Positions 10,006-44,979 of a stretch of DNA of 44,979 nt are shown here, in pieces. A program made the position numbers and the translations under genes. The number at the start of each line of letters is the position of its first letter. The first letter of the stretch is position 1. The notes under the pieces were generated by a model. The model saw nothing but the letters and a program-made list of their open reading frames with translations, was not told where the DNA came from and did no database searches. The DNA is from Chiloscyllium plagiosum (Eukaryota), in contig NC_057753.1 of assembly GCF_004010195.1 (NCBI RefSeq), positions 11,254,315 through 11,299,293 on the forward strand, given 5' to 3'.

Positions 10006-11719
10006 TTTTTGTAAGTAAATTTATTAGCAAATTTTTTTTAACTTTCCAAACATATAAAATTATTGAAAAATACAATCAATAACAAATATCAATACAATAA
10101 AAAGACAAAAACATAAATTACAATACAATTACTGTCACCCTAGCTATTAACCTACCGTTTAATACAAAACAAACCCTAACACTGTGCAAAGCAACACCAA
10201 AAAAAAGAAACAAAAGCAAAAAAAAATGAAAAAACCACAAAATACAGAACAGCTATGCTCAGCGAAAAGCTCCCAAACAAAGGAACAGGAGCATTGTATA
10301 TGTACCCGTATTAACTCAGGAGACCCCCTCCAGGGCCCAGGGCTTCCCAAATCTAACCATCCTGGTTAAACAAACGTCCTAGTTAAGACAACTGACCAAT
10401 CTATCTCCAATAACTCAAGTAGGGCTGCCATGTCTTATAAAAATGATCTATTGTGTGGTGCTCCATGTTTGTAAAAAAGTCCAAGGGAATGTGCTCCATA
10501 ATTAATTTCTGCCATCCCAGCAAGCCCGGCGGGTTCTCAGACGCCCAATTCATCAGAATATTCTTCTGTGCAGTGTGCAAAAATATTAAATAGTTTCTTC
10601 CCATGCCCGTCTAAAGATGGTAAATTCGGTAGACCTAAGAGGAGAGATATTGGGTCTACTTTGACCTCAGTCCTCAATACCCTCCCTATCTCTCCTGCCT
10701 CAGTGCTCCAGTAAACATGGAGCCTGTGCCATGTCCAGAAACAGTGGGTAAGAGTACCTACACTGATAATACATTTGGGGCACACTGAAGATGCCCCTTT
10801 TTTAAACTTCGCCAGACGGTCTGGTACCAGATGAGCCCTGTGCAGAACTTTTAACAGCGTAGCGCAAGTCCTGTTACAGATTGAGATCTTTCAAGTATTC
10901 TCCCATATGTTCTCCCATGTTTCAGACGAGATCTCCATTCCTAGCTCTTGTCCCAGACCTCACATAAATGGTTAATATCCTGCCAGGCCCTGCCACCCAG
11001 CAGGCGATAGAGGGCACTAACCGAAAGTGTGCTTGTGGAACGTAGCAACAACCTCTCTGTATCGGGCTTATAGGGCTTAGTGAGAAGTGTGGTCTCCTTC
11101 TGGATGAAATCCCTAACCTGAAAAAAACGGAAAAGATCTCCAAAGGCATAGCCTCCGATTATGCAAAGTTAATCTTACATCCTGAAATATAGCCCCAAAT
11201 GAATTGATACATTGTATCAAATGGGATACGGAGGTCATTGGGTTCGATAAAAACAGAAGGACATCATCCGCATAAAGTGTAGTCTTGTGTGCCATTGGTC
11301 CCACTTCCGGAGCGGTTATGTGGACGTTCTGACGAATGGCCTCTGCCAGCGGCTCCATCACCAACGTAAACAACAACGGTAAGAGGGGGCATCCTTGCCG
11401 ACTACCCCAACCAATTGAAAAATTCCCAGACTTCACTCAGTTGGTGATGACTGCGTCCAGAGGGTGGCGATATAAAACCTCCACCCACCGAACAAAGACT
11501 CCACCCAACCCGAACTGTTCTAAGACATAAAAAAGATATGGCCATTCCACCCGGTCAAACGCTTCCTCTGCATCTAAGGAAATCACCAACCTCTGAATCG
11601 ATCGTTGCTTACAAACTTGGTCCACATTCAGCAACCTTCTAATATTATTAGAGGACCTACGACCCCTTATAAAGCCTGTCTGGTCCTCTTCAGTAACACC
11701 CTTTCCAATCTCAGCACAT
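10006..11719 (-). mobile_element. 5'-truncated L1-clade LINE (RT and C-terminal Cys/His domain), internally deleted
   Basis: DQTGFIRGR, SLDAEEAFDRVEW, GSRQGCPLLPLLF, LYADDVL and CPKC..GTLTHCFW; T-rich 3' UTR with AATAAA; 14-bp TSD tccaaatggctttc at 9992-10005 and 11720-11733. Confidence 0.92.
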
Positions 11720-12049
11720 TCCAAATGGCTTTCAACTATACCCTCATCCACCACTTCCTCAGAAAGTTCATTCCACACATGAATCACCCTCTGTGTAAAA
11801 TTAGTATTTGAACGGCTAGGATGAGGTTGAATTGAAATGGTTCATAAAATAAACAGTTTCTCCCAAACCCCCGACAGCAGCTATGGTAGCACCTCCAACT
11901 CTGGGTCTTCCCCTCCCCATGTGCTTCAGCTGCAGGGCAGCACAGGCCCACTGCCTGCCCTGCCCCCATTGATCCATTGTGATGTCACAATGCGGAGGTA
12001 GCCCTGTCAGTTTCAGAGTGAAACTCCCTCCCTCCCTCTGGCCAACATG

Positions 12050-13224: not shown

Positions 13225-13525
13225 GTCCATCATCACCAGCAGGGTAGGCACTGTCGACGGCTGGGAAGACGCATCCCATACCTTTTAGAACGGTCCCGTG
13301 TTCCTCGGCGGTGGGTTCCCCCTTCTGGTTGACTGATCGAGATCCAATGGGAGTCTATCTGAACCAGGCGAAAGGGTTGTGAAGTAAGAAATTTAAGTAG
13401 GCACAGGGAGACATCGAGCCAGGCAACTCCGTGCACGGACCAAGGAAGGTAAATTGACTTTTAAGAACTACCTTGGTGGCTGGGATTGAGCTTCAGTAGT
13501 TAAGGGACTAACAAAAGAACTCAAT

Positions 13526-13858
13526 ATGGGCTGTGCCGAGGGTAAAGAAAAAGCCTCCAGGGAAAAAGGAAATGGAAATGGAGGTGGAGTCCCTGACAAC
13601 ATACCTCCAGAAAGTCCTTTGGGAAGGATGTTGTGGAATTGCAAAAATAATACTTGTACAAGGGAAAAAGATAGGAAAAAGATGATTAAATATTGTTGCT
13701 TTGTATGGACTAAGGAATCCATTCTTCGTCCCGCCATCTTCTGGCCAAAGTACGGGTCGGATGAAGACAGTGTTTGTAAATATTTGAATTTATATGTCAA
13801 CGGAAAACAGCTTTTCAGTCAGGAGGGATCAGATTATGCTTCGTGTCAGAAGGGCTAG
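13526..13858 (+). pseudogene. gag: ERV Gag N-terminus (matrix-like), truncated
   Basis: MG start; IPPESPLGRML...KKKMIKYCCFVW...FWPKYGSDED pattern resembles gamma-like ERV Gag; lies downstream of LTR, PBS and a donor AAG|GTAAAT at 13449; no capsid visible afterwards. Confidence 0.8.
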
Positions 13859-15299: not shown

Positions 15300-15569
15300 G
15301 GGGAGAGGCCGTACACCTGCTCAGAGAGCGGGAAGGGATTCATCGATTCTTCAAGCCTGCAGACCCACCAGCGGGTCCACACGGGGGAGAAACTGTTCAC
15401 CTGCCCTGATTGCGGGAGGGACTTCAGTCACGCGGGCAACTTACGGAAGCACCAGTGGGTCCACACCGGGGAGAGGCCATTCACTTGCTCCGAGTGCGGG
15501 AAGGGATTTACCTGCTCCTCCCACCTGCGGAGGCACCAGCGAGTTTACGTGCCATCACAGGGGGATTGA
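15300..15569 (+). CDS. C2H2 zinc-finger protein, 3' end (partial; 5' part lost in the gap)
   Basis: [14 protein letters not shown]...[20 protein letters not shown]...[20 protein letters not shown]...[11 protein letters not shown]; absent from the ORF track for lack of a start codon; first finger has C>S, last has H>Y. Confidence 0.85.
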
Positions 15570-20662: not shown

Positions 20663-21265
20663 GAATAAAGGCAGTGAGCCTGAAGCGTGGAGAGATAAGC
20701 TAGAGAAGGGTGGGGGTGGGGACTCTATACTACTTTCTCCCCACCCCCATCCTCCTCTAGCTTATCTCTCAGCCTGGACAGCTGTGCTCTTTCAGCACCA
20801 CTAATCCAGAATCTGGTTTCCAGCATCTGCAGTCATTGTTTTTACCAATACACACACCAACCTATACGTGAAAACGTTGCCCCGTACGTCCCGTTTAAAT
20901 CTGTCCTCTGGTTCTGGACTCCTCCATCCCAGGGAAAAGACCTTATCTGTTTATCTTATTCATGCCCCTTATGATTTATAAACCTCCATAAGGTTTATAA
21001 AATCTGTTTACCCTGTTTACGCTCCAGGGTAAACAGCCCCAGCCTGTTCAGCCTCTCCCTGTAGCTCAAACCCTCCAACCCTGGCAACTTCCTTGTAAAT
21101 AATTTCTAAACCCTTTTAAGTTTCACAACATCCTTCCTGATTAGTCAGTAATAGCTGTGAACAATCTATATTGTTCAGGTGCTAAGACAGAGCTTTTCTG
21201 GAGGTGAATTAACTTTCACACTTTTTTTTCTAATCCTTAGGACCCTTTTAAATCTTTCCCCTCTC

Positions 21266-21662
21266 CCCCTAAACCTGTGCCCTCTAGTTTGGGATTCCCC
21301 CTAAACCTGTGCCCTCTAGTTTGGGATTCCCCCTAACCCTGTGCCCTCCGGCGTGCGACCCCCCCTAACCCTGTGCCCTCTAGTTTGGGATTCCCCCTAA
21401 CCCTGTGCCCTCTAGTTTGGGACTCCCCCTAACCCTGTGCCCTCTAGTTTGGGATTCTCCCTAACCCTGTGCCCTCTAGTTTGGGATTCCCCCTAACCCT
21501 GTGCCCTCTAGTTTGGGATTCCCCCCTAACCCTGTGCCCTCTAGTTTAGGATTCCCCCTAAACCTGTGCCCTCTAGTTTGGGACTCTCCCTAACCCTGTG
21601 CCCTCTAGTTTGGGATTCCCCCTAACCCTGTGCCCTCTAGTTTGGGATTCCCCCTAACCCTG
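21266..21662. repeat. 32-bp minisatellite, about 12.4 copies, CR1-derived
   Basis: Unit CCCCCTAACCCTGTGCCCTCTAGTTTGGGATT; matches the CR1 segment at 2141-2180. Confidence 0.95.
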
Positions 21663-21769
21663 AGGAAGAGACAGACAAAAGGAGTGAGATGTACAGTCAC
21701 AGGGACAGAAACAATTGTGGCTCCCGCCTTTTTTATCCCAGATTGGCAATTGGACACAAAACCTGTCAG

Positions 21770-29534: not shown

Positions 29535-30962
29535 TCAGTCTGGGGTGTGACCCAGAGCATTGTCACTGGCAGAATCTGATCTTTGGGAGCGCTGGTGTCC
29601 CTGCTGGTGTTTCCGCAAGTTGCAGGACAATGTGAACCTCCGCCCACACTCAGGGCAGGCAAACGGCCTCTCCCCGGTGTGGACCCGCTGGTGCCTCAGC
29701 AGGTCAGAGGAATTGCTGAAGGCCTTCCTGCACTCCGGGCAGGGGAAGGGCCGCTCGCCAGTGTGGACCCGCTGGTGGGCCAGGAGGGCGGAGGCCTGGG
29801 TGAAGCCCTTCCTGCACTTGGGGCAGCTGAAGGGCTTCTCGCCTGTGTGGACCCGCCGGTGGGTCAGTAGGTTAGAGAAGCGGGTAAAGCCCTTCCCACA
29901 CTCAGGGCAAGAGTACGGCCTTTCCCCAGTGTGGATGTGCTGGTGCCTCAGCAGGCTGGAGGAATTGCTGAACGCCTTCCCGCACATGGAACAGCTGAAG
30001 GGCCTCTCCCCAGTGTGGACCCGCTGGTGGGTCTGGAGGTGGGAGGACTGGGTGAAGGCCTTTCCGCACTCAGGGCAGCTGAAGGGCCTCTCCCCCGTGT
30101 GGACCCGCCGATGCCGCAGCAGGTGGGAGGAGACAGCAAAGCCCTTCCCACACTCGAGGCAGGGGAATGGCTTCTTGCCTGTGTGGACCCGCCAGTGGGT
30201 CTGGAGGTGGGAGGCCTGGCTGAAGCCCTTCCTGCACTCGGGGCATGAGAACAGCATCACCCTGGTGTGGACCCGCCCGTGCGCCACAAGGGTGGAGGCA
30301 TGGGTAAACCCCTTCCCGCACTCAGGGCAATGGAAGGGCCTCTCCCCTACGTGGACCCGCCAGTGCCTGAGCAGGCCTGAGGACTTGCTGAAGGCCTTCC
30401 CGCACTTGGGGCAGGAGAACGGGCTCTCCCCAGTGTGGATCCGCCGGTGGGTTAGCAGGACAGAGGAATCACTGAAGGCCTTCCCGCACTTAGGGCGGGA
30501 GATTGGCTTCTTGCCCGTGTGGACCTGCCGATGTCTCAGTAGATTGGAGGAATTGTTGAAGGCCTTCCTGCACTCAGGACAGTGGAAGGGCCTCTCCCCC
30601 GTGTGGATCCGCCTGTGGGCTAGTAGGTCGGAGGAATTGCTGAAGGCCTTCTTGCACTTGGGGCAAGAGAACGGCCTCTCCCCTGTGTGGACCCGCATGT
30701 GCCTCAGCAGGTTGGAGGAATCGCTGAAGGCCTTTCTGCACTCAGGGCAGCTGAAGGGCCTCTCCCCGGTGTGGACCCGCTGGTGGTCCAGCAGGTGGGA
30801 GGAGCGAGTAAAGCCCTTCCCGCACTCAGGGCAAGAGAATGGCCTCTCCCCGGTGTGACTGCGCCGATGAATCTCTAGGGCAGACGGCACACAGAAGCCT
30901 TTCCCGCAGTCACCGCACTTCCACGGTTTCTCCACGGGGCGGGATTCCTCGGGTTTCTCCAT
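29535..30962 (-). CDS. C2H2 zinc-finger protein, 475 aa, 16 tandem fingers (finger 6 degenerate)
   Basis: Open frame from ATG in GCCATGG context (MEKPEESRP) through CxxC...HxxxH repeats with TGERP linkers to a stop. The frame is open upstream to 31055 without an ATG. No effector domain is visible. Confidence 0.93.
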   Translation of the reverse strand: MEKPEESRPVEKPWKCGDCGKGFCVPSALEIHRRSHTGERPFSCPECGKGFTRSSHLLDHQRVHTGERPFSCPECRKAFSDSSNLLRHMRVHTGERPFSCPKCKKAFSNSSDLLAHRRIHTGERPFHCPECRKAFNNSSNLLRHRQVHTGKKPISRPKCGKAFSDSSVLLTHRRIHTGESPFSCPKCGKAFSKSSGLLRHWRVHVGERPFHCPECGKGFTHASTLVAHGRVHTRVMLFSCPECRKGFSQASHLQTHWRVHTGKKPFPCLECGKGFAVSSHLLRHRRVHTGERPFSCPECGKAFTQSSHLQTHQRVHTGERPFSCSMCGKAFSNSSSLLRHQHIHTGERPYSCPECGKGFTRFSNLLTHRRVHTGEKPFSCPKCRKGFTQASALLAHQRVHTGERPFPCPECRKAFSNSSDLLRHQRVHTGERPFACPECGRRFTLSCNLRKHQQGHQRSQRSDSASDNALGHTPD

Positions 30963-31210
30963 GGCCGAAGCTTCAGCCGCACACAAACGTGTGTCCAGCC
31001 CCTCCCCGGTGTGAATTCCTCTTTCCAGACTGTATAACTGTTTCAGGCTCCACACTCAGGGCACTGCAATGGTAGGGTCTCTCATCCAGTCCCACTGATG
31101 CTGGGAATGTACTGAAACAGGAACCAAAAATCCTTGCTCCTTTTCTCACAGAATCAGAGGAAAATCGTTGCAGTCCTGATGGATTGAGTGACTGTCAGAC
31201 ATTGACGTGA

Positions 31211-36839: not shown

Positions 36840-37972
36840 TCAGCCACATTTGGAATATTGCGTGCAGTTCTGGTCGTCACGCTGCCGGAAGGCCGTGGAT
36901 GTTCTGGGAGAGGGTGCAGAGAAGGTTCACCAGGGTGTTGCCTGGTCTGGAGGGATCAACCCGGATTGTTTTCACTGGAAAGACAGAACCTGAAGGGTGA
37001 CCTCAACAAAATGAAGAGAAACACAAATTAGCTGGATAGGTATGGCACGCTGGTTCAGTGGTTAACATGGCGCCAGGGCTTCCGGGTTCAACTCAACCCT
37101 CAGGGCAATTGAGAGTGGAGTTTGCACATTCTCCCCCGTGGGGTTCCTCCAGGTGCTCTGGTCTATCTCCCAAAGATGTGCAGGTTAGGGTGGATTAGCT
37201 GTGCAAAGTTACCCATAGTGCCCAGGGATGTGCAGGTTAGGGTGGATTGGCCGTGCTAAATTACCCATAGTGTCCTGGGACGTGCAGGTTAGGGTGAATT
37301 GGCCAAGCAAAATTACACATATTGTTCAGGGATGTGTAGGTTTGGTGCATTAGTCAGAGGTTAAAGTAGAGCAATAGGGGGTAGGGGAAGGGGTCTAGGT
37401 GGGTTACTCTTCAGAGGATCGATGTGGACTTGTTGGGTCGAATGGCCTGTTTCTACACTGTTGGGTTTCTATGGTAGAGGTTTTTTGTCCCCCCAGGGTG
37501 GAAAGATCAACTCTTAAGAGGGCACAGGGTCAAGACGAGAGGAGGGAGAAGTGGAGGGGATGGTTTTTCACACAGAGGGATGGTAGGTATCTGGAACACA
37601 CTGCCAGTGGAGGTAGTGGAAGTAGGCACCTTTTTAAGGCGTATCTTGATAGACACATGAACGAGAGGGCATAGATTTAGGGTGAGGGGACAGATATAAA
37701 AGAGACCTAAGGGGCAACTTTTTCACACACACAGTGGTACAGGTATGGAATGAGCTGCCCGAGGAAGTGGTGGAGGCTGGTACAATTGCAACATTCAAAA
37801 CCCTTCCCCCAGCCCCATCCTGCACACCATCTGGATGGATATATGAATTGGGAGGATTTGGAGGGATATGGAGGGTGCTGGCAGGTGGGACTAGATTGGT
37901 TTGGGATATCTGGTCGACATGGTTGAGTTGGACCAAAGGGTCTGTTTCCATGCTGTACATCTCTTTGACTCT
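36840..37972 (+). mobile_element. CR1-type fragments with a nested SINE (37043-37472)
   Basis: PHLEYCVQFWS, a SINE with 3-4 internal repeats, and a CR1 3' UTR. Confidence 0.8.
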
Positions 37973-38742
37973 AAATGTACCTGTTTCAAATCTACCTGCT
38001 GTGGTCAGACAAACATTATGCTCCCTCCAGGATTAAAAAAAAATCCTTTGTCTGCTCCTGCGGATCATATCCGTAGGGAAGGTGTAGTCCCAGGCTCAGA
38101 GAGTGTCAGCCCTCACTGGAAGCAAAGTGGGTGTGAGAGCGGACCCTTCCACTTCACCCACTCAATGGGGTTCAGGTTGTGACTCACAGCGGCAGTAACA
38201 TTAGAACCCCACCCTGCACACCATCTCACTTGTGAAATTGCTGGTGTCGCTGCCCGAGGAAGTGGTGGAGGCTGGTACAATTGCAACATTCAAAACCCTT
38301 CCCCCAGCCCCACCCTGCACACCATCTGGATGGATATATGAATTGGGAGGATTTGGAGGGATATGGAGGATGCTGGCAGGTGGGACTGGATTGGTTTGGG
38401 ATATCTGGTCGGCAGGGACAGGTTGGACCGAAGGGTCTGTTTCCATGCTGTACATCTCTATGACTCTAAATGTACCTGTTTCAAATCTACCTGCTGTGGT
38501 CAGACAAACATTATGCTCCTTCCAGGATAAAAAAAAATCCTTCGTCTGCTCCTGCGGATCATATCCGTAGGGAAGGTGCAGTCCCAGGCTCAGAGAGTGT
38601 CAGCCCTCACTGGAAGCAAAGTGGGTGTGAGAGCGGACCCTTCCACTTCACCCACTCAATGGGGTTCAGGTTGTGACTCACAGCGGCAGTAACATTAGAA
38701 CCCCACCCTGCACACCATCTCACTTGTGAAATTGCTGGTGTC
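37754..38742. repeat. ~495-bp tandem duplication
   Basis: 37754-38248 and 38249-38742 are near-identical with scattered substitutions. Confidence 0.92.
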
Positions 38743-39117
38743 TCTGCAAGTTGCACGACTGGGTGAAGCCCTTCCCTCACACTGAGCAGGTGAACGGCCG
38801 CTCCTTGGTGTGGATACGCTGGTGCTTGCACACGGTGGGGGAATCACAGAAGCCATTGCCGCACACAGTAGCTGAATTTCTTCTCCTCGGTGTGGATGTG
38901 GAAGTGGAGCAGCAGCTGGTACGACCGGGTGAAGCCCTTCCCGCAGACGGAGCAGATGAATAGTTTCTCCCCGGGGTGGACCAGGTGGTGATGTGACTGA
39001 GTGAAGCCTTTCCCACGCTGAGTGCAGGTGAATGGCCTCTGCCCGGCCTGCAAACACCAGCACAGACAGGGAAAGGAAACCGTTCTCACATTCCCCGCAT
39101 TTCCATGGTGTCTCCAT
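38720..39117 (-). pseudogene. C2H2 zinc-finger pseudogene
   Basis: METPWKCGEC start; fingers spread over three frames (CSVCGKGFTRSYQLLLHFHIH; CGNGF...[33 protein letters not shown]); frameshifts and an in-frame stop. Confidence 0.85.
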
Positions 39118-40349
39118 GTTGCGGGTGTCCTCATCTCTCTCCGGGTTCGATGATCAGTTTAACACGCACTCATGCTTGCAGCTTGTGTACACTGTTACTA
39201 GCGAATCCTCTGATAATTGGAACACACTCACTCAGTCTGGAAAGCTTGTTCCAGTGACTACTCTGGTGTGTGGGTATGCGTGACTCTGATTTTCTACTCA
39301 CACTGACGTTTCAAACCTAATGAGACAGACAGACCGCCTCCTCTTCATTTTCAAGGCCATCAGTAAACCTGTCCATGTGAATCAAGTGACTGTCAGACTT
39401 TGACATGATGTTTGGTCTGAGATTTCTGCCTCCAAATTCTTCTCTTGTAATATTCCTGTGGAAAGAGATTGCTGTCAGTCCGTGATAGCAAATCAGAACA
39501 CAATTCTAGTTTCTGTGGAAAATTCTTTCCTCTCTTCATCCCCAAGATCTTTGTGTAGATCTATATGTAACTGTAAACCAGCAGGGTAATGGGGCTGACT
39601 GCATTTCTCCACAAAGAGCTGGTATGCTTTCAAGTTGTTGAATATACCTCGATTGTGCAGTATTGGTGTTCTTACTGTAGGATATTATATGCCTTCAGTA
39701 CAATTTACAAGGCTATAAATAACTGCAAATAAAGCTCTTGGAACCATGACTACCTGTTCAAATATGTAGCATATAACCCACTTATCTCTGTCCTATATTA
39801 ACACACGGTTTTCTTAAATCTCAGACTTCTGGTAAAGCTACCATTTCGAGTGTGAATGTTTGGACTTTTTCTATGTCATACCGACTATTACTGGATATAC
39901 ACCCAGTACTACACTAGGACTCCTGGTCAATGACGTGAGGCGTATCTTTATCCTCTTACAATTTTCTGTTCCATAAATGTTTCGACGAATGCCAATGTTT
40001 TTACCAGTCTTAGGTCCAACTCGTCCATGCCGACCAGATATCCAAAATTAATCTAGTCGCATTTGCCAGCACTTGGCCCATATCCCTCTCAACTCCTCCT
40101 GTTCATGTACCCATCTAGATGCCTTTTTGTGGAAGCTGTATTGCTTGCCTGCTTGTCAGTTGCTGACCTGTTTGCAAAACCACCACCCAGGAAGCAGAGG
40201 CAGCTCTTTGCTTAGCTGGCTTCCTTACCTGCAGCCACCAGCTCAGCAGAGGTCAAAGCCACTTGCCTAGCAAAGCCCCAACCCAGGCAGATGGTATTAA
40301 TGGGGGGGGGATGCAGTATCTGCAGTGTGCATTGACTCAAGGTCTGACA

Positions 40350-40660
40350 ACAATAGCCCGTTAAAGATTGCTGATGGGCAGGGCATGCTGCAAGGGCCTT
40401 CCAGAAGAGGTAATAAACCCTTTGATAAGGGAGAGTATTACTGCTGTAATTACGGACGATATTCCCGGGAATACGCTTAGGAAAGTTATTTGGGTGGAAC
40501 TGAGAAATAAGGAAGAGATGATCACCTTATTGGGATCGTAGTATAGGCCCCCTAATAGTCAGTGGGAAATTGAGAAACAAATTTGTAATGAGGTTTCAGT
40601 TATCTGTAAGAATAATAGGGTGGTTATGGGAGGGTATTTTAACTTTCCAAACATAGACTG
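40350..40660 (+). mobile_element. CR1 APE endonuclease fragment
   Basis: WVELRNKE...YRPPNS...FNFPNID. Confidence 0.75.
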
Positions 40661-41489: not shown

Positions 41490-42712
41490 CATAGAATATT
41501 ACAGCACAGTACAGGGCCTTCTGCCCTCGATGTTGGATCGACCTGTGGAACCAATCTGAAGCCCATCTACCTACACTATTCTATTTTCATTTCTATGTTT
41601 ATCCAATGACCATTTAAATACCCTTAAAGTTGACAAGTCTACTACTGTTGCAGGCAGGGCGTTCCAAGCCCCTACTACTCTGAGTAAAGAAACTACCTCT
41701 AACATCTGTCCTATATCTATCACCCCTCAATTTAAAGCTATGTTCCCTTGTGCTGGCCATCACCATCCAGGAAAAAGGCTCTCACTGTCCACCCTATGTA
41801 TATCTTATATGTCTCATTTAAGTCACCTCTCAACCGCCTTCTCTCGAACAAAAACAGTCTCAAGTCCCTCAGCCTTTCCCCATAAGACCTTCCCTCCATA
41901 CCAGGCAACAACTTAGTAAATCTCCTCCGAACCCTTTCCAAAGCTGCCACATCCTTCCGATAATGCGGTGACCAGAACTGTACGCAATACTCCAAGTGTG
42001 GCCACACCAGAATTTTGTGCAGCTGCAACATGAACTCATGGCTGTGAAACTCGATCCCTCTTACAATAAAAGCTAACACACCGTATGCCTTCTTAACAAC
42101 CATATCAACCTGGGTGGCAACTTTCAAGGATCGAGGTACATGGATACCGAGATCTCTCTGCTCATCTATACTACCAAGAATCTTACCATTAGCCCAGTAC
42201 TGTATATTACTGTTGCTCCTTCCAAAGTGAATCACCTCACACTTCTCCATATTAAATTCCATTTGCTACCTCTCAGCCCAGCTCTACAACTTATATATGT
42301 CCTTCTGTAACCTGCAACATGCTTCGGCACTATCCACAACTCCACCAGCCTTAGTGTCACCTGCAAATTTACTAACCCATCCTTCTAAGCCCTCATCCAA
42401 GTTGTTTATAAAAATGACAAACAGCAGTGGCCCCAAAACAGATCCTTGCTGTACACGACGAGTAACTGAACTCCAGGGTGAACAGCTCCCATCAACCATC
42501 AACTTCTTTCAGCTAGCCAATTTCTGAACCAAACCACCCTTAATCCACGCCTCCGTACTTTCTGTAATAGCCTACTGTGGGGAACCTTATCAAACACCTT
42601 ACTGAAATCCATATACACCACATCGACCACTTTACCCTCATCTACCTGTTTGGTCGCCTTCTCAAAGAGATCAACAAAGTTTGTGAGGCATGACCTACCC
42701 TTCACAAAACCG
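41490..42712 (-). mobile_element. CR1 LINE RT and 3' end inserted in ERV pol
   Basis: QGSVLGPLLFVIFINNL, FNMEKCEVIHFG and PHLEYCVQFWSP. Confidence 0.92.
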
Positions 42713-42714
42713 TA

Positions 42715-42965
42715 TTAGATTAGATTACTTACAGTGTGGAAACAGGCACATTCTCCCCGTGTCTGCGTGGGTTTCCTCCAGGTGCTCCGGTTTCCTCCCA
42801 CAGTCCAAAAACATGCAGGTTAGGTGAATTGGCCATGCTAAATTGCCCGTAGTGTTAGGTGAAGGGGTAAATGTAGGGGAATGGGTCTGGGTGGGTTGCT
42901 CTTCGGAGGGTCGGTGTGGACTTGTTGGGCCAAAGGGCCTGTTTCCACACTGTAAGTAATCTAAA
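42715..42965 (+). mobile_element. Headless SINE flanked by inverted 3' tails
   Basis: 28-bp perfect inverted repeat at 42720-42747 and 42937-42964. Confidence 0.85.
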
Positions 42966-42974
42966 AAAAAAATG

Positions 42975-43504
42975 CAGGTTTTTGTTAACCACAAAATGGC
43001 TGTTCAATTCAGAATAACACAAAAAAAATGGCTGAAAGTAATGATTTGACTCAGTGAACCTGTGCTGCTGCTTTGCTGAATTAAGCTAAAATAGAAGATA
43101 AGAGAAAACAATGGATTTTTCATAATATGCATCATAAGACGGTGATTTGGTATTTGAACTAATCTTGAACTAGCAAGCATGGGATGATTTTGTGTGTCAA
43201 ACAATCTGTTTCTCAAGAAATATCATTGGATTAGCCTGCTGTCAGTCATGTCACCTTATTATAGTTGATTGGACTTTTCTCGTAATTAAGGCTGTGCTGT
43301 CTCTTAAAAAACATATAAATAATGTGTAAGTTTCGAATGTAATTGCGCAACTTCACCATGGAACCCAGAAGCTTTAACCTCCGTGTTGCTGGACAGATTC
43401 GCGACAAGGTGCCTTACTTTAGTAAACCTTGCTTTGTACAGATTGCATTCCATTGATTATTTGACCGATCTCGGACTGAAAAGGCCCCTTAAGGGGTGGG
43501 GTTC
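42975..43504 (+). mobile_element. 5'-truncated LTR related to 6901-7519
   Basis: Shares aaatatcattgg..gctgtca.t.atgtca...ttgattgg and TATA context with 7222-7330; ends TTCA at the pol junction. Confidence 0.65.
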
Positions 43505-44520
43505 ATATCGTCACCCTCAAATCCTGCATAAATCTCCACTGTGCCAATTTTCCTGCCTTAGGAATAGGGAGGATAGGAGTGTTGCAGGGGCTAGTGGGAT
43601 GCACCAGGATTCCTTGCTGTAGGTTGGAATAAATAACTGGTTTTACATCTTTGTTGACAGGTGACAAATTGTACTGTCTGATAGACGGTAGGATGGCCCC
43701 ACGTTTCACAGTGACCATATGAGGCAGAGCCGATATAATGAGGTCTGCGTCATTGGAGTGCTGTGCCCACAATGAAGGTGGCACATTGTTGAGCAGTAAG
43801 GGGCTGCCATAGAAGGGGGAGGGCAGTGGGGTCTGCAAGGTAAAGGTCACATCCTCGGACAAAGGAAAACAACACACACAAAACTCCTGTCCTAAGCAGG
43901 CAATCTGCATGGAGTCAGGATCCAGGAGTTTAAATTCCTTTGGCAAACTGCAGAGTCTGTGCACCATGGGCCCCAAATCCTTTGGGTACCAAGGGGCTTT
44001 AACTATTGGGAAATATGAGGGAATGAGGTGGGGTTATTTCAGAAAAGCGTTCTTTGTTCAGCTTTGAGCAGAACTTCCACAGCTAATCCCTCCTTACCAA
44101 CGTAACACAGGCCAGTCAATGTCAGTGTAGAAACCAGATTGAGATAAGGGTCTGTAATAGCGGAATAAGACGGGTCAGGTTCGTGAAGGTAAGTTGCAGT
44201 GCAGTGAGACTGGTCTGAACGATCCAGTGGGGGAGGGTGGTCATGGGAGATGGAGGGGCATTCAACAAATGCAGCAGGGAAGAGGTCAGGAACGTACAGG
44301 GTTGCCCAGGAAAGTCCATGTGTAAAGGGAGGGAGTAGGAGAGGACAAAGGCAGAAAAGTGGCCACAGCAACCAGCAAAAGGGAGTAATTAGAGTCAGGG
44401 CGTTCCAAGGTGAGGCCCTGTGGAGAGCAGTGAATGGAAGCGTTCAGTTTGCATACAGTCTGTCGACCGAGAAGGGTAAATGGACAAAAAGGGGAGATTA
44501 TAACAGTGTTTGTAGAATTT
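43505..44520 (-). pseudogene. pol: ERV pro-pol: protease C-terminus, 2H-like insert, RT N-terminus
   Basis: SPFCPFTLLGRQTVCKLNASIHCS (protease end); HCTA and PHIS motifs; PSIRQYNL...SPCNTPILPIPK...WRFMQDLR (RT start). Confidence 0.88.
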
Positions 44521-44979
44521 TTCTTTTAGCTTTGGCAGAAGCTGCTGGAGTTTTGAAAGAAGTACAACATTTCTTTTTCCTCTCTCAGCTACGAAATTGA
44601 CTCCACCTGAAACTGGTGTGGGATAGTGTTCAAGTAACAACCAAAACTCACTGAGTGGCGAAAATAGCCTCTTTGTTCAGCAATCACAGCACAAGGTCGA
44701 GGTGGTGATGGACCCTCGAAATACAGTTCTTACAGGAGCCCCTTTATACACAGTTCTTGCATATCATTACTATAGTGTTACATTTTTAATCTGTAGTACA
44801 CAAAGGTTTGAAGGGCTTCTGTCCTGGGAGACAGGAGATGGGTTAAAAATGTGCTAAATGCTAGCTACTATTCATAATCTATCCAGTCTGCTTGCATAAT
44901 TAGAAATGTTAGTTATTTCGTCTTTTACATTAGTACATGAGTTAAAAATACAAATACTCAGCCTACATGCTCTAAATAA

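What the first reader, a model, noticed from the sequence alone, without database searches (positions are those of the whole stretch)
43960..44390. 2H-phosphoesterase-like domain between protease and RT in a shark ERV
Seen: about 600 bp separate the protease end (LLGRQ) from the RT start. The insert has HCTA (His codon 44204-44206) and PHIS (His codon 44015-44017) in the same frame, 63 codons apart with one stop between, then KDLGPMV after a frameshift. Established: paired Hx(T/S) motifs define 2H phosphoesterases, reported in fish retrovirus Pol and in coronavirus NS2 and rotavirus VP3, where they degrade 2-5A. Inference: this ERV lineage carried an accessory RNA-end-processing or immune-antagonist enzyme. 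This copy is dead.
Basis: partly seen in the sequence, partly recalled or inferred. Interest (0 to 1): 0.72.

Follow-up and report, generated by a model that had tools for sequence, protein, structure and literature searches.

The report
CNPase-like domain in dead shark retrovirus
A broken endogenous retrovirus carries, between its protease and reverse transcriptase, a real copy of a domain related to the host enzyme CNPase rather than to the viral 2-5A-destroying enzymes; this kind of insert has been reported in fish retroviruses, and I found no test of its function.

Summary
On the minus strand of a decayed class I ERV pol, His codons 44206-44204 and 44017-44015 lie in one frame, 63 codons apart, inside a roughly 170-codon insert between protease and RT. 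The motif pair alone is within chance, but a profile of natural homologs scores the insert at 36.4 bits (E 1e-12). The domain also occurs in shark, skate, bichir, teleost and newt ERV Pol; 35 of 41 rows keep both motifs. Models of two intact homologs match vertebrate CNPase (Z 17.0 and 12.9) far better than coronavirus ns2 (8.4, 4.8) or rotavirus VP3 (6.6, 5.5). All 23 PDB sequence hits are CNPase/RICH. A CNPase-type helix follows the second His. So it most likely opens 2',3'-cyclic phosphates; 2-5A breakdown is unlikely. This copy is dead: two frameshifts, one stop, RT core missing. CNPase inserts in fish ERVs are in print (PMC4977317), and this scan noted the domain before on other DNA (e1-7858212, e1-7811984). 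New member of a known kind, function untested.

The parts
44390..44519 (-). C-terminal half of the retroviral protease, with LLGRQ (44474-44460); the catalytic N-terminal half was not found in the window
   Evidence: tblastn of turtle, newt, bichir and other Pol proteins
44300..44390 (-). Linker and first strand of the CNPase-like domain (Y-x-W motif), still in the protease frame
   Evidence: tblastn P0009 residues 48-117 to 44507-44301; translation; Y/F-x-W or YW found upstream in 11 of 20 homologs
44003..44290 (-). Core of the CNPase-like 2H domain in a shifted frame: HCTA (His 44206-44204), in-frame TGA 44041-44039, PHIS (His 44017-44015), frame closed by TAG 44005-44003
   Evidence: profile hits 44221-43952
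43850..44000 (-). C-terminal part of the domain after the second frameshift: KDLGPMV (43982-43962), start of the predicted CNPase-type helix, then closing strands
   Evidence: helix in homolog models
43506..43850 (-). Linker and N-terminal ~95 residues of reverse transcriptase (LWAQH ... QWRF ... DLRV), cut off at about 43506
41490..43505 (.). About 2 kb of repeats (high-copy repeat, SINE-like and LINE-like pieces) where the RT core should be; about 230 codons of RT are absent
   Evidence: gap between P0010 residues 153 and 383; repeat families D5, D7, D8, D12; contig depth
40726..41489 (-). RT connection and RNase H of the same pol, with stops and a frameshift
   Evidence: Pfam RT_RNaseH E 2.4e-4; tblastn
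40349..40426 (-). Short further pol piece, probably the start of the integrase region
   Evidence: tblastn P0010 residues 634-659, E 0.007; weak

Best explanation
The stretch is a decayed copy of a CNPase-family 2H phosphodiesterase domain that an old lineage of class I (epsilon/gamma-like) retroviruses of fishes and amphibians carries in Pol, between protease and RT. Shown: position, homology, CNPase-type fold of intact relatives, two conserved H-x-T/S motifs, breaks in this copy. Inferred from CNPase chemistry: the intact domain hydrolysed 2',3'-cyclic phosphates to 2'-phosphate, leaving a free 3'-OH. Inferred from its place in Pol: it was made as part of Gag-Pol and packaged with RT. Most likely purpose (inference, untested): healing cyclic-phosphate ends that host metal-independent nucleases leave on viral RNA or primer tRNA, next to the enzyme that needs a 3'-OH. 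The window's copy makes nothing functional. Identity as a CNPase-family domain: about 0.95. Cyclic-phosphate chemistry: about 0.75. End-healing as the purpose: about 0.5.
For: Profile match of the window insert (shuffle control). Homologs from shark, sawshark, catshark, skates, bichir, teleosts and newts. Both motifs kept in 35 of 41 rows that cover both columns, near-duplicates included. Teleost homolog model, pLDDT 86-97 over the domain: mouse CNPase 2xmi Z 17.0, rmsd 3.2, 167 aligned, 19% identity; next 2H 9.8; Foldseek best hits CNPase, E 2.6e-8. Newt homolog model: 2xmi Z 12.9, rmsd 4.0, 176 aligned; other 2H at most 5.5. Domain profile against PDB sequences: 23 of 23 hits CNPase/RICH, best E 2.8e-4. 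Helix 127-137 follows the His-2 strand, as helix alpha7 does in CNPase, a helix described as absent from other 2H enzymes (PMC4643303, passages). Weak tRNA_lig_CPD hits in 2 of 12 members and in the Atlas, score 0.79, a lead only. [quoted passage not shown]
Against: No activity was measured and I found no functional paper. The folds are of intact relatives, not of the window copy. Identity to CNPase is only 19%; His spacing is 58-68 against 79. Arg307 is replaced in 20 of 20 homologs and the Phe235 position is aromatic in only 7 of 16 usable rows. No curated Pfam 2H or CNPase family reaches its cut-off. The two closest shark gene models (P0054, P0045) have Tyr instead of His; they look decayed, but this is a result against conservation among close copies. 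Many related Pol proteins lack the domain (25 of 59 tree rows), so it is dispensable in many lineages. A 2'-phosphate end may itself hinder priming (own reasoning).
Confidence: 0.5

Rival explanations
1. Same chemistry, different purpose: the packaged domain destroys 2',3'-cyclic nucleotides and cyclic-ended RNA fragments that act as innate danger signals (for example lysosomal RNase T2 products sensed by TLR7/8; recalled, no call).
For: CNPase hydrolyses free 2',3'-cyclic nucleotides (PMC4643303, abstract). Structural hits to walleye-virus Env polyproteins hint that the domain can also sit in Env, away from RT, so closeness to RT may not matter.
Against: No direct evidence. The Env placement rests on Foldseek rows without ranges. 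The receptor link is recalled.
Confidence: 0.2
2. Decoy or competitor for host CNP, which blocks assembly of primate lentiviruses by binding Gag; catalysis would be secondary.
For: CNP inhibition of lentiviral assembly is cited in PMC5434554 (passage) and PMC7471995 (table row). The viral domain comes from exactly this family.
Against: The catalytic motifs are kept in 35 of 41 rows, which points to selection on catalysis. The restriction is reported for primate lentiviruses only in what I read.
Confidence: 0.1
3. 2',5'-phosphodiesterase that destroys 2-5A and blocks OAS-RNase L, like coronavirus ns2 and rotavirus VP3.
For: Shared 2H fold (ns2 Z 8.4 and 4.8; VP3 Z 6.6 and 5.5; AKAP18 Z 7.6). 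Elephant shark has an OAS (PMC6307210, passage). 2H substrate choice can drift.
Against: CNPase scores 7-9 Z units higher in both models; no ns2, VP3 or AKAP7 among 23 sequence hits. The domain is frequent in teleost ERVs while OAS is reported missing from some teleosts (PMC2852836, passage). The survey of viral 2-5A PDEs has no occurrence of 'retrovir' or 'fish' in its text (PMC10835031, term search).
Confidence: 0.08
4. A captured host domain with no current viral function, carried along as a spacer between protease and RT.
For: Patchy distribution: 10 changes on the RT tree, at least 6 forced. His lost in the nearest shark gene models.
Against: Motifs and fold are kept while overall identity among members has fallen to 19-25%, across sharks, bony fishes and newts.
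Confidence: 0.07

Closest known systems
CNPase-bearing epsilon-like ERVs of ray-finned fish (Basta et al. 2009, not held; seen only as cited in PMC4977317, passage) and the 2H domains of fish retroviruses (Mazumder et al. 2002, not held; seen only as cited in PMC9503650, passage)
   Same: Retroviral CNPase/2H domain in fish-type class I retroviruses.
   Different: Here in a probably cartilaginous-fish ERV, with relatives in skates, bichir and newts. The passages I could read do not give the position in Pol, so I cannot say whether the protease-RT placement is in print. This copy is broken.
Vertebrate CNPase and goldfish RICH catalytic domain (2xmi, 1woj, 2ilx, 2i3e)
   Same: Fold (Z 17.0, 12.9), H-C-T and H-x-T/S-L motifs, Ser three before His-2, helix after the His-2 strand, Gly 15 residues after His-2 (CNPase His309 to Gly324; numbers).
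   Different: 19% identity; shorter His spacing (58-68 against 79); no Arg307 equivalent; no PNK-like N-terminal domain or membrane-anchoring tail; embedded in a viral polyprotein.
Viral 2',5'-phosphodiesterases (MHV ns2 4z5v, rotavirus VP3 4rpt/6o3v) and AKAP7/AKAP18
   Same: 2H superfamily fold and paired His motifs; viral context.
   Different: Much weaker structural match, 9-14% identity, no sequence-profile hit; a separate branch of the superfamily.
Fungal tRNA ligase cyclic phosphodiesterase domain (Pfam PF08302)
   Same: Weak profile hits (best E 0.0025, 2 of 12 members; Atlas lead); same predicted reaction.
   Different: Below the curated cut-off; no ligase or kinase partner in the polyprotein.

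Membership tests
2H phosphoesterase superfamily | Two H-x-T/S-x motifs | tested here: met
   Window HCTA and HIS, the latter cut by a frameshift; 35 of 41 homolog rows keep both
2H phosphoesterase superfamily | Two-lobed 2H fold | tested here: met
   On two intact homologs, not on the window copy:
2H phosphoesterase superfamily | Phosphoesterase activity | not testable with these tools
   Needs an assay
CNPase/RICH catalytic domain | Nearest sequence and structural neighbour among 2H proteins | tested here: met
   23 of 23 PDB sequence hits; Z 17.0 against 9.8 for the next 2H
CNPase/RICH catalytic domain | Helix alpha7 after the second His strand | tested here: met
   Helix 127-137 after strand 116-121 in the P0026 model, 265-276 after 254-259 in P0061; Gly at His-2+15 in 19 of 20 (the filter asked for a Gly at +14 to +17, so partly circular). 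Residue-level pairing with alpha7 was not printed.
CNPase/RICH catalytic domain | Substrate-binding Phe235, Tyr168, Arg307 | tested here: inconclusive
   His-1+5 aromatic in 7 of 16 usable rows (4 rows dropped: wrong first His picked) and Tyr in the window; upstream Tyr/Trp motif in 11 of 20; Arg at His-2 minus 2 in 0 of 20
CNPase/RICH catalytic domain | Curated Pfam family hit above cut-off | tested here: not met
   None; so filed as CNPase-like, not as a CNPase orthologue
CNPase/RICH catalytic domain | 2',3'-cyclic nucleotide 3'-phosphodiesterase activity giving 2'-phosphate | not testable with these tools
   Needs an assay
Viral 2',5'-PDEs (ns2, VP3-CTD, AKAP7-like) | Closest homology to AKAP7-like phosphodiesterases | tested here: not met
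   Listed but far below CNPase in both models; absent from sequence hits
Viral 2',5'-PDEs (ns2, VP3-CTD, AKAP7-like) | Cleavage of 2-5A | not testable with these tools
   Needs an assay
Class I (epsilon/gamma-like) ERV pol | Protease-RT-RNase H order with class I-like RT | tested here: met
   the homolog profile matches MLV/XMRV RT best
Class I (epsilon/gamma-like) ERV pol | LTRs, gag and env around pol | tested here: inconclusive
   No gag match next to this pol in the window; the window ends about 460 nt upstream of the protease piece; env and LTRs were not searched

The most novel reading that the evidence does not exclude
Retroviruses of fishes and amphibians captured the catalytic domain of CNP, a host protein that itself restricts lentiviral assembly, early in jawed-vertebrate history, and placed it in two different virion-bound polyproteins (Pol in most, possibly Env in the walleye viruses). 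They use it as a packaged eraser of 2',3'-cyclic-phosphate danger signals: a viral counter-defence on cyclic nucleotides that is separate from the 2-5A and cGAMP phosphodiesterases.
Probability: 0.2. Interest if true: 0.75.

Novelty: new member of a known kind. Interest (0 to 1): 0.37.

Why it matters
Enzymes beyond protease, RT, integrase and dUTPase are rare in retroviral Pol (own knowledge). A CNPase-type domain kept from sharks to newts points to an unexplained pressure involving 2',3'-cyclic phosphates in retroviral replication, and the physiological substrate of CNPase itself is still called unknown (PMC3290555, search listing). An assay on an intact natural homolog could inform both questions. 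This locus alone is a dead fragment and adds mainly host range.

Tried and rejected
Window pieces alone: no Pfam hit for the insert, no meaningful PDB sequence hit (ATP synthase gamma at E 0.66 is chance), no relative in viral contigs, none among 265 word-index candidates. No whole genome is held, so other genomic copies could not be counted. The domain-profile word-index search returned only 6 proteins among 6187 candidates, 2 of them new; it gives no census. Sequencing runs: no RNA holder listed; in one poly(A) single-cell run, about 2% read, no reads lay on 43462-44649; neither is evidence on expression. Whether the matching DNA in organisms B and C is the same insertion or other copies is unresolved: no listed piece spans the stretch. 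No fungal tRNA ligase CPD structure was listed in the wide fold searches; not a test. The RT tree has only 94 columns and some 'none' labels may be spliced gene models (e.g. P0031), so single origin versus repeated gain is open. Literature: Mazumder 2002, Basta 2009 and Doherty 2025 are not held. No functional test of a retroviral CNPase/2H domain turned up in searches; this covers open-access text only. Han 2015 on shark ERVs (PMC4422223, first 10,000 of 14,366 characters) does not mention the domain in the part read; PMC6001957, PMC8672886, PMC7599744, PMC9967133, PMC7619455 and bioRxiv 2021.11.23.469661 had no relevant passage by term search. No supplements were opened; domain tables there could mention it. 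Sequence look-up in earlier scan notes found nothing.

Full report
Observation. Six-frame translation confirms every coordinate given, all on the minus strand: LLGRQ 44474-44460, HCTA 44206-44195, PHIS 44020-44009 with the His codon at 44017-44015, KDLGPMV 43982-43962 and LWAQH 43772-43758. The two His codons share a frame, 63 codons apart, with one TGA at 44041-44039. The protease end and the RT start share a different frame, so the insert is broken by two frameshifts, one near 44300-44260 and one right after the second His, where a TAG at 44005-44003 closes that frame. From LLGRQ to LWAQH is 234 codons, against 57-64 residues in three turtle and frog Pol proteins: about 170 extra codons.

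Chance. A loose search for paired H-x-S/T motifs 55-100 codons apart with at most one stop gave 6 other pairs in the window and missed this one, since the residue after H-I-S is out of register. The pair alone proves nothing. The insert read by itself had no Pfam or PDB hit and no hit in two database searches.

Context. The insert lies in a class I ERV pol: protease C-terminal half 44519-44390, RT N-terminus to about 43506, then about 2 kb of repeats in place of some 230 codons of RT core, then connection and RNase H at 41489-40726 and a weak further piece at 40426-40349. No gag match was found beside it; the window ends soon after. The copy cannot make a working Pol.

Homologs. An HMMER search with the open frame 44000-43506 gave 256 proteins at E up to 0.001, 150 listed. 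17 of 152 stored proteins aligned over the insert. 15 of 152 had two His motifs 58-68 apart followed by a D-L-G-like word. Named sources among 20 looked up, include Chiloscyllium, Pristiophorus, Scyliorhinus, Leucoraja, Amblyraja, Erpetoichthys, several teleosts, Pleurodeles and Lissotriton. A profile from those 15, without the window, scores window 44221-43952 at 36.4 bits, E 1.2e-12; the next window hit is 0.9 bits. A second profile from 12 domain stretches gives 34.9 bits against at most 6.6 in 1800 shuffled frames. Among 182 stored proteins, 53 domain rows were found; 41 cover both His columns and 35 keep both H-x-S/T motifs (cluster near-duplicates included). Against this, the two nearest shark gene models, P0054 and P0045, carry Tyr at the His positions they cover.

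Fold. AlphaFold models of two intact homologs were searched. Astyanax P0026 (domain pLDDT 86-97): mouse CNPase 2xmi Z 17.0, rmsd 3.2, 167 residues, 19% identity; then Deinococcus-type CPDase 5h7f 9.8, archaeal 2'-5' ligase 9.3, MHV ns2 8.4, AKAP18 7.6, Acb1 7.3, rotavirus VP3 6.6. Foldseek ranks CNPase first, E 2.6e-8. Newt P0061 (lower confidence): 2xmi Z 12.9, rmsd 4.0, 176 residues; VP3 5.5, ns2 4.8. By sequence alone, the domain profile hits 23 PDB sequences up to E 10, all CNPase or goldfish RICH, best E 2.8e-4. In both models a helix follows the strand that starts at the second His. In CNPase this is helix alpha7, described as conserved in vertebrate CNPases, absent in other 2H enzymes and possibly setting stereospecificity (PMC4643303, passages). 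A Gly stands 15 residues after the second His in 12 of 12 rows of A2 and 19 of 20 representatives (filter partly circular), matching the His309-Gly324 distance. Ser three before the second His is kept in 16 of 20. Arg307 has no counterpart in 20 of 20, the Phe235 site is aromatic in 7 of 16 usable rows (Tyr in the window), and the His spacing is shorter than CNPase's 79. It is CNPase-like, not a CNPase orthologue by curated families.

History. On a 94-column RT tree of 59 rows (154 representatives examined; those with short coverage or unknown status dropped), the window groups with newt P0185, sawshark P0009 and two unnamed proteins (98/88). The domain label needs 10 changes, at least 6 forced. 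An old gain with many losses fits, but repeated gain or recombination is not excluded, and some 'none' rows may be spliced gene models. Contigs from three organisms match parts of the stretch closely. In one contig of organism B covering 43974-44117, all 4 substitutions fall outside the second His codon and the TGA, so that stop is not an assembly error of this window. Orthology versus other copies is unresolved.

Mechanism. Shown: position in Pol, family, conserved motifs, breaks. From established CNPase chemistry (PMC4643303, abstract and passages): His-activated water opens a 2',3'-cyclic phosphate to a 2'-phosphate. Inferred: as part of Gag-Pol the domain was packaged with RT. I commit to healing of cyclic-phosphate RNA ends left by host nucleases as the most likely purpose (0.5); mammalian CNPase can replace the CPDase of yeast tRNA ligase (PMC5434554, passage). 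Rivals: removal of cyclic-nucleotide danger signals (0.2), decoy for the host restriction factor CNP (0.1), 2-5A breakdown (0.08), passenger (0.07). The 2-5A reading is weak because ns2, VP3 and AKAP18 score far below CNPase and because the domain is common in teleost ERVs while some teleosts are reported to lack OAS (PMC2852836, passage); elephant shark does have an OAS (PMC6307210, passage).

What is known. PMC9503650 (passages) states that 2H domains occur in fish retroviruses and walleye dermal sarcoma virus, citing Mazumder 2002. PMC4977317 (passages) states that some ray-finned-fish epsilon-like ERVs encode a CNPase or macro domain, citing Basta 2009. I could not read either original. 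Eight open-access searches showed no functional test and no statement on sharks or newts; supplements were not opened. This scan noted the same domain before, once on another piece of this genome (e1-7858212) and once in another genome (e1-7811984). Those notes agree with my own fold results and are not independent support.

Verdict. A real feature, correctly spotted, but of the CNPase branch and of a kind already in print. New here at most: host range beyond teleosts, the CNPase-specific helix, and a hint that walleye viruses carry the domain in Env (ranges not shown). New member of a known kind; interest 0.37. The boldest reading still open, a packaged eraser of cyclic-phosphate danger signals, has probability 0.2 and would deserve 0.75.

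Noticed in passing
BFVD hits Q9WHI8 (WEHV-1 Env) and A4GTG3 (WDSV Env): The protease-2H-RT model matches the Env polyproteins of walleye viruses (E 4.3e-7 and 4.8e-5, TMq 0.32, higher than protease-only rows at 0.21-0.28). The 2H domain may sit in Env in those viruses. Ranges were not given. [quoted passage not shown]
   Followed up: no
P0139, P0073, P0117, P0096: Related Pol proteins with other long stretches between protease and RT that match neither the 2H profile nor any Pfam family.
   Followed up: partly
window 29538-31055, minus strand: 506-codon open frame of tandem C2H2 zinc fingers (84-nt repeat); further broken zinc-finger pieces near 15300-15544 and 38700-39158.
   Followed up: no
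P0167 (skate gene model, 1816 aa): Zinc-finger-like N-terminus joined to an ERV Pol that holds part of the 2H domain; may be a gene-prediction artefact.
   Followed up: no
window 13490-13855, plus strand: Open stretch that resembles the N-terminal matrix region of a class I ERV Gag (resemblance recalled, not tested), a separate element from the pol described here.
   Followed up: no
window 10540-11841, minus strand: Broken non-LTR retrotransposon RT pieces of L1/Tx1 look (recalled motifs).
   Followed up: no
window 43000-43460 and 44650-44900: Very high-copy repeats on both sides of the protease-2H-RT fragment; these are the only parts with reads in the RNA run.
   Followed up: partly
window 21200-21726 and 37754-38747: A 32-nt tandem array and a 494-nt tandem duplication at 96-99% identity.
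   Followed up: no
window near 44290: Indels at about this place differ between the window and contigs of two other runs, so the locus or its copies vary between samples.
   Followed up: no
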